From contig OZ024751.1 in assembly GCA_964016885.1 (NCBI GenBank), forward strand, positions 23,684,001 to 23,748,000: a stretch of DNA of 64,000 nucleotides. The letters are read 5' to 3'. Below are positions 6,014-58,539 of this stretch, one piece after another. Each line of letters opens with the position of its first letter. The stretch's first letter is position 1. The DNA is from Eledone cirrhosa. Lineage: Eukaryota. A model generated the notes under the pieces. That model had not been told where the DNA came from, ran no database searches, and saw only the letters and a list, made by a program, of their open reading frames with translations. The position numbers were made by a program, and so were the translations under genes.

Positions 6014-7213
6014 ATGAAGATGTTGATAAACTATTTTGTTTTAATCCTGACAGCAACTCTATCGCTAGTAAATCTCAGCCCTACGCACGTAGATGAAATT
6101 CAACTACATACTAATTTGTTATCCACTTATAACAAACAAATAAGGCCTGTTTTAAATTTGAATAAATCTGTCGATATAGAGGTTCTGTTACTCCTTAAGA
6201 CGCTCTATAATTTCGATTTTGTAAATAACCGACTAATTGCACAATACTTCATTATCTTCTACTGGGAAGATGAACTGCTGAGATGGAATCCAGAAGATTA
6301 CCATAACCTCACACGTACATACTTACCGAAAGCTAAGGTATGGACACCAGATTTCATAATGTGTAATTCAATGAAGGAATCAGACGATAAAGATAGTTTT
6401 CCCGAGGTAATAGTTTATAATGAAGGGTGGATAGAAATGCGGGCAATAAAATCAGTAGAGACATATTGTGAAGTAGATGCTTACAACTACCCATTTGATA
6501 AACAGGAGTGCCCAATCACCATATGTGTCGCTGTGCACGAACCTCAGCATACCAAATTTGTATCAATTAATTGCGAGGTTTATGAATTTGAAAATAACTA
6601 CCAATGGGGTATCAGCATGGATGGTCAAGTATACCCAAAGAACGACAAATACAGCTCCGTAACAGCTATGATGTTCTTACGACGTAAACTCAAAGTAGGT
6701 ATTTTGGCTATGCTAATTCCAACTGTAATGATGACACTTTTAACTATCTTTGTGTTTCTGCTGCCCCCTGAATCAGGAGAGAAAGTCTCTTTAGCAACAA
6801 CGATATTTTTATCAAATGTCTTATACCTCGTTCAAATAGATAAAACGACGCCTAAAAGCTCAAAATCCCCTTCACTTCTGATGTTGTATTTAATGTTGTT
6901 ATCAATGTGCAGTGGAGTTGCCACACTTGGTTCAGTGGTTATCAGTAAATTGTATGTAAACCAATCAGCTAAAGAAAAGAATTCTTCGGCTTTAGATCAA
7001 AATAATACCAAACCTCACGGTAACAAAATTGCTGATGTTTCACTAATTTCCACAGCACAACCTTATCCTGCCATGACACAGGAAAGGTCAAAGTTAAAAC
7101 AATGGTTCTCTGACTACGTACGACTGGATGATATATTTCTAAAACTTAGCGTTGTATCAACAATAATTATTGCAATATTATTTGTAAGCTTGTTGTTTAC
7201 AGCTCCGGATTAA
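6014..7213 (+). CDS. Chemotactile receptor (CRT-type, atypical nAChR-like Cys-loop cation channel subunit), paralog 1, 399 aa
   Basis: First ATG 6014; signal peptide, IRPV, WxD..L.WNP, Cys-loop C-x13-C (CEVDAYNYPFDKQEC), no loop-C CC, PPESGEK before M2, four TM segments; uninterrupted CDS. Confidence 0.93.
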   Translation: MKMLINYFVLILTATLSLVNLSPTHVDEIQLHTNLLSTYNKQIRPVLNLNKSVDIEVLLLLKTLYNFDFVNNRLIAQYFIIFYWEDELLRWNPEDYHNLTRTYLPKAKVWTPDFIMCNSMKESDDKDSFPEVIVYNEGWIEMRAIKSVETYCEVDAYNYPFDKQECPITICVAVHEPQHTKFVSINCEVYEFENNYQWGISMDGQVYPKNDKYSSVTAMMFLRRKLKVGILAMLIPTVMMTLLTIFVFLLPPESGEKVSLATTIFLSNVLYLVQIDKTTPKSSKSPSLLMLYLMLLSMCSGVATLGSVVISKLYVNQSAKEKNSSALDQNNTKPHGNKIADVSLISTAQPYPAMTQERSKLKQWFSDYVRLDDIFLKLSVVSTIIIAILFVSLLFTAPD

Positions 7214-7796
7214 GTAATTCTAAAATATTGAAAAATAAACTAAACGTACATTCATACATAGTTATTTCAGAGCACCAATAATAATGTCTCTCTCTCTCTC
7301 TCTCTCTCTCTCTCTCTCTCTCTCTCTCTCTCTCTCTCTCTCCCTCTCTCTCTCTCTCCCCCCCCCTCTCTCTCTCTCTCTCTCTCTCTCTCTCTCTCTC
7401 TCTCTATATATATATATATATATATATATATATATATATACAAATTTTAGCACAGCATCAACGAACCTTTTGGATGCAGCCAAGCTAACGTATGCAGTTT
7501 CGGTGGGCAGCTAAACACTCAATAGGGAATGATCTCTAGAGGTTTAACATTACGTTTAGACAGCTTTGCAAATCAAATACAGCGACCGATAGACGGGCCG
7601 CATTGACCATAGCGACGAAGAAAACCGAACTCAGGAAAAATTAATCACTCGCCCCCCCCCTCTCTCTCTCTCTCTCTCTCTCTCTCTCTTTATATATATA
7701 TATAGTAATAATAATCAATTTGAAGACTCAGATCCAAAGAAGGCTCGATAAGGATAAACATATATTGTCGTACTACTAATTTATTTATATTATCCT

Positions 7797-7911
7797 TAAC
7801 GATCTGAGTTCAAATCCCGCCGAGGTTGACTTTGCCTTTCGGGGTCGATAAAATAAAATACCAGTAATGCACTGGGTATTTGCTGGCCTTGTGTCAAAAG
7901 TAGAAACAATT
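7797..7911 (+). mobile_element. 5'-truncated tRNA-SINE (duplicated at ~13937-14051 and ~20442-20556)
   Basis: B-box plus core with a shared small deletion. Confidence 0.75.
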
Positions 7912-55373: not shown

Positions 55374-57303
55374 AAAATTCCGCAATATTTAATTCTTTCC
55401 TTCGTTCTTCTTTTAATTTATATAGACATTATCTATTCTTCTGTAGTCATTCAAATATTTCCCTTAAAAGCCTTGGAGTTTGTATTGTTTAGGAGTTTCC
55501 AATAGAACTGAAATTATTTAAGTTCTACATAAGACCATGTTTAACATGCACTGAATTAGGAGTTTTGCTCCTATCACTATGTAACGAATTCGTCATTTAG
55601 AAAATGATTGTTCCCATCAATAAGTTGTTAGTAATAACGAAAATAGATTGCTTCTATTAGTTTGAAATCTGAGAGTTAATTAACTACACTACCAATAAAT
55701 ATTGCCATGTGATTTACATGGTGAGGTCATTGAAATCGTAATATATTATCCGGAGTCTAGAGAGCCTGCAAATTACCCAAGTACTGAAATAGATAAATAA
55801 AGGGTTTGAGGAGAATGATCACGAAGAACCTATGGAATATTTCTCTAGAAGGACGTATTATTATATAGAGAAATGTGCATCAATGCATTCTTAATACCTG
55901 ATGGAGTTACATATGAAATATGGTGGCTATTCAAAAATGACGAAGCTCATATATATATATATATATGTTATATATATATTTTATATATATATATGTTATG
56001 TATAACACACACACACACACACACACACACACACACACACACACACACACACACACACACACACACACACACACACACACACACACACATATATATATAT
56101 ATATATATATATATATGCTTGTTTTACTAGCAAGATCACATTGTTGTATGTTTCATATTATTTATTCTATTTCTACTTCGATCCCTGAATTTAAGTATAC
56201 ATTCTCCCAGTGGATACATCTACGTGGTAAACTAATAAATAATTAAACATCTCAACTATCATATTGACAATATAAGCCCATCCCGTCCTCAAACCTGACA
56301 TTCATACTCTAGACAATTGTTTGAATTAGATAATGTTTCATCACCATAAATATATTAGACAACATCCATTATGGTTTTCTGTTTTTGTTTTTTCTATTCA
56401 TTTCTATTTGTTAACGTTGTTATTCTTATTGATATTTCTCAGTATGTAATGTGAATCTAGGATTGTCGTTGGTTGTTTTTTTTATGTACCGACTGTTGCT
56501 ACTCTTCTTGTTGATATGGTTTTATTTTTAGTTACTTACGGATATATATATATACATAGAGTTGCGTTTATACTGAATGGTTTCATTTCGTATCATCCAG
56601 CGACGTCTAGATTCTTCTATTGCTGCTTTATATATTTCGTTACTTTACAATTACCTAGAAATATTGAATAAATGAATGAGTTATTAATTTACCACCCAAG
56701 AAGGTAAAACAAGTGAATGAATATTAGTACTGGAATAATAAAACAGGAATTATGAGTTCCACTACATATTTGGGAATCTAACGATCATTTGGATACACAA
56801 CCCGCTCATAAGTAAGGAAATATTTACTAGTAACAATAAATACTTTTACCAACTCAATTTTAATGTCTTGGACAATAACAACATCACTTCTATTCAAATA
56901 TATTTTACCTCTGTAAAACGGACCAAAATAACAATTCTCATGAAGGTATTAGAGTTTTCATGTTTTTCGATGAGAGAACTTTTCCGAAGATTTTCACTCC
57001 GTAATCTCAATTCAAACTTAAAGTTAGATTTCACCGTTTTAAAAATTATATCATTCTATATTGTATTTTACTGATCTAATTTGATAATGTTTTCGAATAT
57101 CACGAATAACCTTCATTTTATGGAAAATATATTTTAATAAATATAAAGTGTAACAGATTTACCCAATTTAGTCCACATATAAAGTTTAACATATATACAC
57201 AGTTTAACACATAAATAGACTGTAGCAAATGAAACAAATATAAAACTTAAAAACATTGATATTTATGATCATTACTACACACTTCGACTTACAGCAAAGA
57301 AGG

Positions 57304-58539
57304 ATGGAGCTTAAAATTTCCGAAATAATACAGATAATGCTATTAACGTTGTATTTTGCTTTGATTATGTCTCCGAATATATCGGTAGTAAACTCCCAAG
57401 CTACATACGACGATGAAAAACTACTGCATGCTAAATTGTTGTCCAACTATAACAAAGATATAAGACCAGTTATTAACGTGACTACTACTGTTGAATTATA
57501 TACTTTGTTACATCTTAACACGCTCTATGACTTGGACTTTGTAAATAACATACTTAAGAGCCAATTCTACTTTGGAATAATGTGGTCTGATCAACATATG
57601 ACCTGGGACCCAGAGGAATATAACAACATTACATCTATATATCTACCGAAAAATAAGATATGGATGCCAAATATAGCAATGTGTAATTCAATGAAAGAAT
57701 CAGAAGATGCAGACAGTTCTTCAGAAGTCAAAATCTCTTATACTGGATGGATAGAATCATGGTCACCGAAATCGTTACAAACATTTTGTCAAGTAAATGC
57801 TTACACCTATCCATTTGATGATCATATGTGCGAAATTTATGTCTGTGTCGCAATGCACGCTGCTGTACATACGAGAATAAAAACACTCACATACGAGGAT
57901 TTCAATTTTATAAAAAACTATAAATGGCATATTCAATTAACTGGTGTAGTCAATGGCACAGGTGACGACTTCAGCTACGCATTTGCTCAGATGTTCTTAC
58001 GACGTAAAGTCACTGTAGGTATTATTGCGATGTTGAGCCCTTCAATCATGATGACACTTTTAACTATCTTTGTGTTTCTTCTGCCCCCTGAATCAGGAGA
58101 GAAAGTCTCTTTAGCAACAACGATATTTTTATCAAATGTCTTATACCTCGTTCAAATAGATAAAACGACGCCTAAAAACTCAAAATACCCTTCACTTCTG
58201 ATGTTGTATTTAATGTTGTTATCAATGTTCAGTGGAGTCTCCACACTTGGTTCAGTGGTTATAAGTAAATTGTATGTAAACCAATCAGCTAAAGAAAAGA
58301 ATTCATCGGCTTTAGATCAAAATAATACCAAACCTCAGGGTAACAAAATTGCTGATGTTTCACTAATTTCCACAGCCCAACCTTATCCTGCCATGACACA
58401 GGAAAGGTCAAATTTAAAACGATGGTTTTACATCTCTGACTACGTACGACTTGACAACATTTTTCTAAAACTTAGCGTTGTAACATCAATAATAATTGCA
58501 ATATTATTTGTAACTTTGTTGTTTACACCTCTGGATTAA
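57304..58539 (+). CDS. Chemotactile receptor (CRT-type), paralog 7, ~411 aa (start uncertain: 57265, 57304 or 57337)
   Basis: Cys-loop CQVNAYTYPFDDHMC; GEK; four TM segments. ATG 57304 follows an acceptor-like TTACAG. Confidence 0.92.
   Translation: MELKISEIIQIMLLTLYFALIMSPNISVVNSQATYDDEKLLHAKLLSNYNKDIRPVINVTTTVELYTLLHLNTLYDLDFVNNILKSQFYFGIMWSDQHMTWDPEEYNNITSIYLPKNKIWMPNIAMCNSMKESEDADSSSEVKISYTGWIESWSPKSLQTFCQVNAYTYPFDDHMCEIYVCVAMHAAVHTRIKTLTYEDFNFIKNYKWHIQLTGVVNGTGDDFSYAFAQMFLRRKVTVGIIAMLSPSIMMTLLTIFVFLLPPESGEKVSLATTIFLSNVLYLVQIDKTTPKNSKYPSLLMLYLMLLSMFSGVSTLGSVVISKLYVNQSAKEKNSSALDQNNTKPQGNKIADVSLISTAQPYPAMTQERSNLKRWFYISDYVRLDNIFLKLSVVTSIIIAILFVTLLFTPLD

What the first reader, a model, noticed from the sequence alone, without database searches (positions are those of the whole stretch)
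6014..58539. Actively expanding tandem array of seven intact octopus chemotactile receptor genes
Seen: seven co-oriented, uninterrupted ORFs with a Cys-loop, -1' Glu (GEK, cation-selective) and a short loop C without vicinal Cys; none is pseudogenised despite dense TE decay around them. Established: this matches the cephalopod CR family used for contact chemosensation in suckers, which forms homo- and heteromeric channels. Inference: genes 1-5 are a young subclade with a distinct ectodomain, probably with uncharacterised ligands; genes 6-7 are an older, more CRT1-like type (from my memory of CRT1).
Basis: partly seen in the sequence, partly recalled or inferred. Interest (0 to 1): 0.7.

Follow-up and report, generated by a model that had tools for sequence, protein, structure and literature searches.

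The report
Octopus taste receptors sharing one pore
Seven intact octopus 'taste-by-touch' receptor genes lie in a row, and six of them carry a nearly identical ion-pore half behind very different sensing halves, likely because the pore half was copied between neighbours while the sensing halves were likely driven apart by selection.

Summary
There are seven co-oriented, unbroken ORFs of about 400 aa. The best solved relative is octopus CRT1 (E 1e-135 to 1e-166; nAChR/5-HT3 about 1e-30). None maps one-to-one to a database CR (best 57% for gene 1, 65% for gene 7). Tandem CR clusters are already known.

Gene 7 is 63-66% identical in DNA to genes 1-5 over the ectodomain but 95-97% over 58048-58394 (M1 to the M3-M4 loop). 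Synonymous differences fall from 31-36% to 7-11% (p≤1e-5), and the likeness runs past the stop codon. Short-read contigs break at the same base, which argues against an assembly artefact. Best reading: gene conversion put a gene-7-type pore half behind another ectodomain, and that gene then amplified. Genes 1-5 show ectodomain pN/pS 1.72 (p=0.01), concentrated at CRT1 pocket positions. Genes 2 and 3 have lost Cys150. Four unnamed database CRs show a similar split at protein level.

Ligands, expression and copy-number polymorphism are untested. The scan noted analogous conversion in other receptor arrays, none a CR array.

The parts
6014..7213 (+). CR gene 1 (399 aa, one ORF)
12196..13395 (+). 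CR gene 2 (399 aa); Ser at CRT1 position Cys150, new Cys at 62
18668..19867 (+). CR gene 3 (399 aa); 98.5% identical to gene 2, same Cys changes; AlphaFold model pLDDT 81 matches CRT1
29802..30998 (+). CR gene 4 (398 aa)
42479..43678 (+). CR gene 5 (399 aa); codons about 207-235 shared with genes 2/3 (conversion patch)
54171..55373 (+). CR gene 6 (400 aa); own ectodomain lineage, pore half in one clade with the other six
57337..58539 (+). CR gene 7 (400 aa from the Met that aligns with CRT1 Met1; further in-frame ATGs at 57265 and 57304); most CRT1-like ectodomain
58048..58394 (+). Core shared tract in gene 7 (mid-M1, M2, M3, most of M3-M4 loop), 94.8-97.1% identical to genes 1-5
   Evidence: short-read contigs break here
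58395..58556 (+). Outer part of the shared tract (end of loop, M4, about 17 nt past the stop), 86-91% identical to genes 1-5 in its coding part
6728..7074 (+). Counterpart of the core tract in gene 1 (337 of 347 bases equal to gene 7)
55100..55135 (+). 36-base run in gene 6 identical to genes 7 and 1
5208..5309 (+). Conserved non-coding element upstream of gene 1: branch point, pyrimidine tract and CAG ending at 5232, then conserved sequence; likely 3' splice site of a 5'-UTR intron. Copies before genes 2-5 (AG at 11385, 18057, about 29029, 41813)
   Evidence: splice role inferred from motif
53430..53530 (+). Diverged copy (about 71%) of the same element upstream of gene 6 (AG at 53454); none found before gene 7

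Best explanation
This is a tandem cluster of seven single-exon octopod chemotactile-receptor genes, predicted to form cation channels, in which gene 7 and genes 1-5 share a 95-97% identical pore-coding tract behind ectodomains only about 45% alike, most likely because gene conversion copied the pore half between neighbours. Shown: family membership by sequence and fold, the tract, the drop in synonymous divergence inside it, an excess of amino-acid change in the ectodomains of genes 1-5, and its concentration at CRT1 pocket positions. Inferred: (1) the ancestor of genes 1-5 received a gene-7-type 3' half, and exchange likely went on afterwards; (2) it then amplified by unequal crossing-over in units of about 6-13 kb that carry their spacer repeats; (3) selection drove the pocket rims apart while spacers and pore halves stayed alike; (4) the proteins act as sucker chemoreceptors with one common pore and different ligands. 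The inner pocket of genes 1-5 stays mostly hydrophobic and the rim gains Lys/Arg/Glu/Gln, so they would not respond like CRT1 and may favour more polar or amphipathic ligands.
For: Gene 7 vs genes 1-5 DNA identity: 62.8-66.0% (57400-58047), 94.8-97.1% (58048-58394), 86-91% (58395-58536). Synonymous differences in codons of equal residue: 30/96 to 32/89 before and 10/141 to 15/138 inside the tract, Fisher p 5e-7 to 1e-5 for 5 of 5 pairs. Permutation tract test p=0.0002 (0.004 after x21) for 5 of 5 gene-7 pairs. M3-M4 loop identity is 93-96% at ectodomain identity 42-48%; among 279 database pairs with ectodomain identity under 65% the highest loop identity is 77%. Pore-half tree: all seven form one clade at 100/99 and genes 1-5+7 at 98/89; ectodomain tree: three long separate branches. 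Ten residues private to genes 1-5+7 in the pore half, 0 in the ectodomain. In 3 of 3 deep runs, and the small fourth, the gene-7 contig ends at 58076-58077; in the three deep runs a contig of 2.6-4.6 times the depth starts at 58048 and carries gene 7's own Tyr codon. Direction: at 20 tract positions where gene 7 differs from all of genes 1-5, gene 6 sides with gene 7 at 13, with genes 1-5 at 4, other at 3 (6 of the 20 are one indel). Selection: ectodomain 107 non-synonymous / 17 synonymous changes, pN/pS 1.72, p=0.010; pore half 0.68; 11 of 15 CRT1 pocket positions vary against 63 of 185 others (p=0.003; permutation 5e-5); spacers differ by only 0-4.7%.
Against: The ectodomain protein data do not formally reject a clade of genes 1-5+7 (AU p=0.092) or of all seven (p=0.068), and the ectodomain backbone is unresolved; the case for conversion rests on DNA. 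For gene 6 the synonymous drop is not significant (p=0.10-0.28) and no tract was found. None of the 10 pairwise ectodomain dN>dS tests among genes 1-5 reaches p<0.05 (best 0.052); only the pooled count does, and recombination can bias it. Direction is parsimony on few sites. No function or expression data.
Confidence: 0.8

Rival explanations
1. No conversion: all seven genes descend from one recent ancestor, purifying selection keeps the pore half alike, and fast protein evolution drove the ectodomains apart.
For: Ectodomain monophyly is not rejected (AU p=0.068-0.092). M1-M3 is 82-88% identical at protein level even to CRT1. The pore halves of all seven form one clade.
Against: Selection on protein does not explain a 3-4-fold drop in synonymous divergence at a sharp boundary, exact runs of 97 and 103 bases, 93-96% identity in the low-confidence M3-M4 loop or likeness past the stop codon. 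It may still hold for gene 6.
Confidence: 0.07
2. Assembly or polishing artefact: reads of genes 1-5 overwrote gene 7's 3' half, and some near-identical copies (genes 2/3) are haplotypes assembled in tandem.
For: Genes 2 and 3 differ at 6 of 399 residues, with 0 synonymous differences beyond the signal peptide. Some spacers are 99-100% identical between units. Copy number of genes 1-5 was not checked against reads. Two gene-7 bases (58080, 58377) read otherwise in the collapsed contigs.
Against: Gene 7 keeps private, ancestral states inside the tract (Tyr284, a two-codon stretch missing in genes 1-5), and contigs over 58048-58228 and 58391-58527 fit gene 7 with one difference and no gap. The de Bruijn contigs break at the tract start independently of the assembly. 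Genes 2 and 3 have different upstream contexts (gene-1-like and gene-5-like).
Confidence: 0.08
3. Relaxed selection: genes 1-5 are redundant young copies drifting towards loss, and genes 2/3 are already impaired.
For: Genes 2/3 lack Cys150, and CRT1 C150A gave no response to progesterone or norharmane (10.1101/2025.10.28.685082, Fig. S8 legend). Genes 1-5 have five ectodomain cysteines, an odd number. The pore half of genes 1-5 has pN/pS 0.68, high for a channel.
Against: 0 of 5 has a stop or frameshift despite ectodomain dN up to 0.17. pN/pS is above 1 and concentrated at pocket positions. Database CRs P0016, P0023 and P0024 also lack Cys150.
Confidence: 0.12

Closest known systems
Octopus bimaculoides chemotactile receptor CRT1 (PDB 8EIS, 9E6B) and the 26-gene CR cluster on chromosome 15 (PMC9068888, passage read)
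   Same: Cys-loop fold (model of gene 3 vs 8EIS: 1.9 A over 291 columns), no vicinal cysteines, ESGEK before M2, intronless coding region (PMC13174522, passage), tandem cluster, fast-evolving pocket (PMC11526382, passage).
   Different: No one-to-one match (at most 57% for gene 1, 65% for gene 7). In the 25 Octopus-type database CRs the same small groups appear in both the ectodomain and pore-half trees, whereas here the pore halves form one private clade. Pocket residues differ: W122 is R/L/L/R/P in genes 1-5; gene 7 has H39, P124, M153, D191.
Mammalian TLR1/TLR6 gene conversion (PMC2077338, abstract read)
   Same: Tandem receptor paralogues whose membrane and intracellular half is kept alike by conversion while the N-terminal sensing part diverges.
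   Different: Different protein class; there the pair is stable across species. Here the shared half is an ion pore and one partner is an amplifying, diversifying subfamily.
Conversion in cephalopod protocadherin clusters (PMC9068888, passage) and in bird odorant receptors (10.1101/2025.11.14.688425, abstract)
   Same: Conversion shaping a tandem neural or chemosensory family.
   Different: In what I read, neither describes a boundary at the sensor/pore junction of a ligand-gated channel.

Membership tests
Cephalopod chemotactile receptors (CR) | Cys-loop ligand-gated channel architecture (beta-sandwich ectodomain, C-x13-C, four TM helices) | tested here: met
   Pfam 7 of 7; motif 7 of 7; model of gene 3
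Cephalopod chemotactile receptors (CR) | Groups with CRT1-type octopus receptors, apart from nAChRs | tested here: met
   PDB search CRT1 E 1e-135 and 8e-166 against about 1e-30 for nAChR/5-HT3; nested among octopus CRs in both trees
Cephalopod chemotactile receptors (CR) | Loss of the acetylcholine site (no loop-C vicinal Cys, no loop-B Trp) | tested here: met
   7 of 7; the nAChR motif itself is from general knowledge
Cephalopod chemotactile receptors (CR) | Intronless coding sequence in a tandem cluster | tested here: met
   feature stated in PMC13174522 and PMC9068888
Cephalopod chemotactile receptors (CR) | Hydrophobic inner pocket (CRT1 Y58, F124, A152, L153) | tested here: inconclusive
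   Genes 1-5: 58 F/F/F/F/L, 152 A in all, 153 V/V/V/M/V, 124 I/V/V/Q/Q; rim positions 37, 122, 191 often charged. Sequence only; no pocket geometry computed
Cephalopod chemotactile receptors (CR) | Expression in sucker sensory epithelium | not testable with these tools
   No RNA holder listed for the one stretch searched
Cephalopod chemotactile receptors (CR) | Cation current gated by poorly soluble ligands; homo- or heteropentamer | not testable with these tools
   ESGEK motif 7 of 7 predicts cation selectivity; no assay
CRT1 orthologue (gene 7) | Sister to the CRT1 group in phylogeny | tested here: inconclusive
   Ectodomain 60-63% to P0001/P0002/P0004, clade neither found nor rejected (AU p=0.28); pore half rejects it (p=2e-5)
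CRT1 orthologue (gene 7) | Residues needed for the progesterone response (Y39, F124, L153, L191) | tested here: not met
   H39, P124, M153, D191; CRT1 L153M, F124V and Y39 mutants gave no progesterone response
Canonical nicotinic acetylcholine receptor | Loop-C vicinal Cys (alpha subunits), loop-B Trp, grouping with nAChRs | tested here: not met

The most novel reading that the evidence does not exclude
Cephalopod chemotactile receptor clusters make new receptors by module swap: conversion repeatedly pastes one pore half behind unrelated ligand-binding domains, the chimera amplifies, and selection re-tunes its pocket rim. Here that produced a subfamily with charged pocket rims and altered disulfides that senses a chemical class unlike CRT1's. 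It happened independently in at least two lineages (this window; database proteins P0025/P0035/P0184/P0036).
Probability: 0.35. Interest if true: 0.7.

Novelty: new variant of a known kind. Interest (0 to 1): 0.5.

Why it matters
CRs are the main model for how a neurotransmitter receptor became a chemical sensor. If clusters exchange pore halves, whole-protein CR trees and the selection scans built on them mix two histories and should be run per domain. The array also gives a natural experiment: six subunits with almost the same pore and ectodomains from 44% to 99% alike, five differing mostly at pocket positions, which makes ligand tuning directly testable in oocytes or HEK cells. The family, its tandem clustering and pocket selection are known, and partial conversion is known in other receptor families, so this is a clean new case, not a new principle.

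Tried and rejected
No whole genome is held for this window, so genome-wide CR count and neighbours are unknown. No RNA holder listed for 56700-58750; no evidence either way on expression. Only the gene 7 region was laid on contigs; contig depth is no copy number, and the 2.6-4.6-fold depth at 58048-58228 can be explained by genes 1-5 alone. The quick tree's 97% clade that shut genes 1-5 out and suggested kinship with P0016/17/23/24 fell to 60/70 in the careful tree; I do not claim that kinship, though the shared Cys166 fits it and the data do not reject it (p=0.44). Conversion into gene 6 was not significant. Searches for closer relatives of genes 1-5 found none: 33 hits, best 57%; 50%-cluster library, best 54%; shorter proteins, 2 hits, best 51%. 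Transposon proteins in spacers: 0 of 30 ORFs. Rfam: 0. Literature: searches for 'chemotactile' with 'gene conversion' gave 2 papers, where the term refers to protocadherins or a reference title; one search listed nothing on CR recombination among 20 of 84 shown. The primary CR papers (van Giesen 2020, Allard 2023, Kang 2023, Albertin 2015) were not available, and bioRxiv supplements were closed, so a prior report there is not excluded. No complex prediction was run, since a dimer of a known pentamer would pass by likeness. Earlier scan notes: none near this place or by sequence.
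Full report
OBSERVATION. Seven co-oriented ORFs of 398-400 aa lie at 6014-7213, 12196-13395, 18668-19867, 29802-30998, 42479-43678, 54171-55373 and 57337-58539. All seven carry Pfam Neur_chan_LBD and Neur_chan_memb, a C-x13-C loop and PPESGEK before M2, and lack vicinal cysteines and the loop-B Trp. tblastn found no other CR piece in the window. 'Dense TE decay' is only partly borne out: no transposon family in 30 of 30 spacer ORFs tested, out of 34 candidates, but 18 copies of one short dispersed repeat and 11.6% dinucleotide runs. 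That the repeat is an octopod SINE is my recollection, not a call.

IDENTITY. The best solved relative of genes 1 and 7 is octopus CRT1 (E 1.3e-135 and 7.5e-166), then squid CRB1 (about 1e-39), then 5-HT3 and nAChR (about 1e-30 to 1e-34). An AlphaFold model of gene 3 (pLDDT 81) matches CRT1 best (1.9 A over 291 columns). In the protein collections the nearest hits are Octopus CRs at 57% for gene 1 (33 hits), 65% for gene 7 (31 hits) and 54% for gene 4; shorter proteins add nothing closer. So these are CRs with no one-to-one match among the database proteins of O. bimaculoides, O. sinensis and O. vulgaris. The species is likely another octopod (inference). Tandem clustering is known: 26 genes on O. 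bimaculoides chromosome 15 (PMC9068888, passage). Intronless structure is stated in PMC13174522 (passages). Selection on the pocket is reviewed in PMC11526382 (passages).

THE MODULE SPLIT. Gene 7 matches genes 1-5 at 62.8-66.0% in DNA over the ectodomain, 94.8-97.1% over 58048-58394 and 86-91% from there to the stop, with likeness continuing about 17 bases past the stop. The start is abrupt, in the middle of M1. Protein constraint does not explain it. Among codons with the same residue, synonymous differences fall from 31-36% to 7-11% (5 of 5 pairs, p 5e-7 to 1e-5), and a permutation test finds the tract in 5 of 5 pairs (p=0.0002; 0.004 corrected for 21 pairs). Exact runs reach 97 and 103 bases. 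The M3-M4 loop, low-confidence in the model, is 93-96% identical at ectodomain identity 42-48%; the highest loop identity among 279 database pairs with ectodomains under 65% alike is 77% (six distant CRs were left out of that count and are treated below).

TREES. With 38 proteins, the pore half puts all seven in one clade (100/99) and genes 1-5+7 at 98/89; the ectodomain leaves gene 6, gene 7 and genes 1-5 on three long branches of an unresolved backbone. Pore-half data reject gene 7 with the CRT1 group (AU p=2e-5), gene 7 with P0007/15/18 (0.001), gene 6 with P0014/19/22 (0.003) and genes 1-5 with P0016/17/23/24/34 (0.006) (these groups were chosen after seeing the first trees). Against my reading, ectodomain data do not reject a clade of genes 1-5+7 (p=0.092) or all seven (p=0.068). 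For gene 6 the synonymous drop is not significant (p=0.10-0.28), so older conversion there is only suggested, by six private residues shared with the others and one 36-base exact run.

ARTEFACT CHECK. Four runs hold the gene 7 region (one study, possibly the assembly's source). In the three deep runs a single contig covers 56160-58077, with 13, 4 and 10 differences from the window, and ends 30 letters into the tract; a contig of 2.6-4.6 times the depth starts at 58048. The fourth run's short contig ends at 58076. That is where a de Bruijn graph would break if gene 7's ectodomain runs into sequence shared with paralogues. Thirty letters is one short of the tool's bridging rule, so this is support, not proof. 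Contigs over 58048-58228 and 58391-58527 fit gene 7 with one difference and no gap, so its private Tyr codon and two-codon stretch exist in reads. Two gene-7 bases (58080, 58377) read as the paralogue state in the collapsed contigs.

DIRECTION (inferred). At 20 tract positions where gene 7 differs from all of genes 1-5, gene 6 sides with gene 7 at 13, with genes 1-5 at 4, other at 3; six of these are one indel. Gene 7 holds the database-majority residue at Y284, I366, P398 and L399, genes 1-5 at two others. The simplest history is that the ancestor of genes 1-5 took a gene-7-type 3' half and then amplified. Gene 7 is about as close to gene 1 in the core tract as gene 1 is to gene 4, so exchange likely continued.

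GENES 1-5. They sit in duplicated units of about 6-13 kb whose spacers differ by 0-4.7% substitutions, while the genes with near flanks differ by up to 8% and ectodomain dN reaches 0.17. Pooled over the five, the ectodomain has 107 non-synonymous and 17 synonymous changes (pN/pS 1.72, p=0.010); the pore half has 32 and 15 (0.68). No single pair is significant (best p=0.052), and recombination can bias pooled counts. Of 15 CRT1 pocket positions named in 10.1101/2025.10.28.685082 (section 7 and Figs S7-S8 legends read), 11 vary, against 63 of 185 others (p=0.003; permutation 5e-5). Mosaic patches exist within the five, for example codons 207-235 of gene 5 with genes 2/3 (p=0.002 corrected).

POCKETS. 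The inner pocket of genes 1-5 stays mostly hydrophobic (58 F/L, A152, 153 V/M); the rim gains K/E at 37 (genes 2-4), R/L/P at W122, Q at F124 (genes 4-5) and K/R/I at 191. In CRT1, W122L, F124V, L37A and C150A abolish responses to progesterone and norharmane, and L153M abolishes the progesterone response; Y58, W122, F124 and F192 line the site (10.1101/2025.03.03.641191, passages). So genes 1-5 are predicted not to share CRT1's ligands, and gene 7 (H39, P124, M153, D191) is predicted not to be a CRT1-like progesterone receptor. Genes 1-5 have an extra Cys166 without the Cys183 that accompanies it in P0016/23/24; genes 2/3 replace Cys150 by Ser and gain Cys62. Disulfide pairing was not computed.

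A SECOND CASE. Four unnamed ENA proteins show the same pattern at protein level: P0025, P0035 and P0036 have ectodomains 60-69% and loops 89-97% alike, and P0184 joins them with near-identical pore halves. P0025, P0035 and P0184 each come from a contig of 168,729 bases, probably the same one. No DNA was available, so conversion there is a lead only.

COMPARISON AND NOVELTY. It is a CR cluster by every sequence test I could run; expression and gating are untested. It works like TLR1/TLR6, where conversion keeps the membrane and signalling half alike while the N-terminal part diverges (PMC2077338, abstract); conversion also shapes bird odorant receptors (abstract) and is suggested for cephalopod protocadherins. 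Searches found no report of conversion among CRs, but the four primary CR papers and preprint supplements could not be read. Verdict: known family, real and intact array, new variant through the shared pore half and a diversifying subfamily. Interest 0.5.

Noticed in passing
window 5208-5309, 11361-11462, 18033-18134, 29024-29106, 41789-41890, 53430-53530: A non-coding element 610-810 bases upstream of genes 1-6, about 70% conserved between gene 6 and genes 1-5: branch point, pyrimidine tract, CAG, then a TATAAA-containing stretch. Likely a 5'-UTR splice acceptor or a promoter; not found before gene 7.
   Followed up: partly
loose ends at window 58562: Contigs in three runs leave the tract into a gene-1-like 3' flank that is not in the window within 3 mismatches, suggesting another allele or a further paralogue outside the window.
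   Followed up: partly
window 24386-24877 and 37685-38176: A 163-codon open stretch duplicated with the gene units; resembles the tail of a retroelement protein by recollection, no Pfam hit.
   Followed up: partly
P0007, P0015, P0018: These database CRs read ESGKK instead of ESGEK before M2, which could alter ion selectivity.
   Followed up: no
window 54171-55373 (gene 6): Val at CRT1 position E104, the vestibule residue tied to calcium permeation, where the other six have Asp; M2 also differs (AVTIFTS).
   Followed up: no
window 16852-17130 vs 40640-40918; 17296-17745 vs 41086-41535: Spacer stretches upstream of genes 3 and 5 are 100% and 99.8% identical although their ectodomains are only 77% alike.
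   Followed up: partly
P0025, P0035, P0184, P0036: A distant CR group with near-identical pore halves and patchy ectodomains, a possible independent case of the same process.
   Followed up: partly
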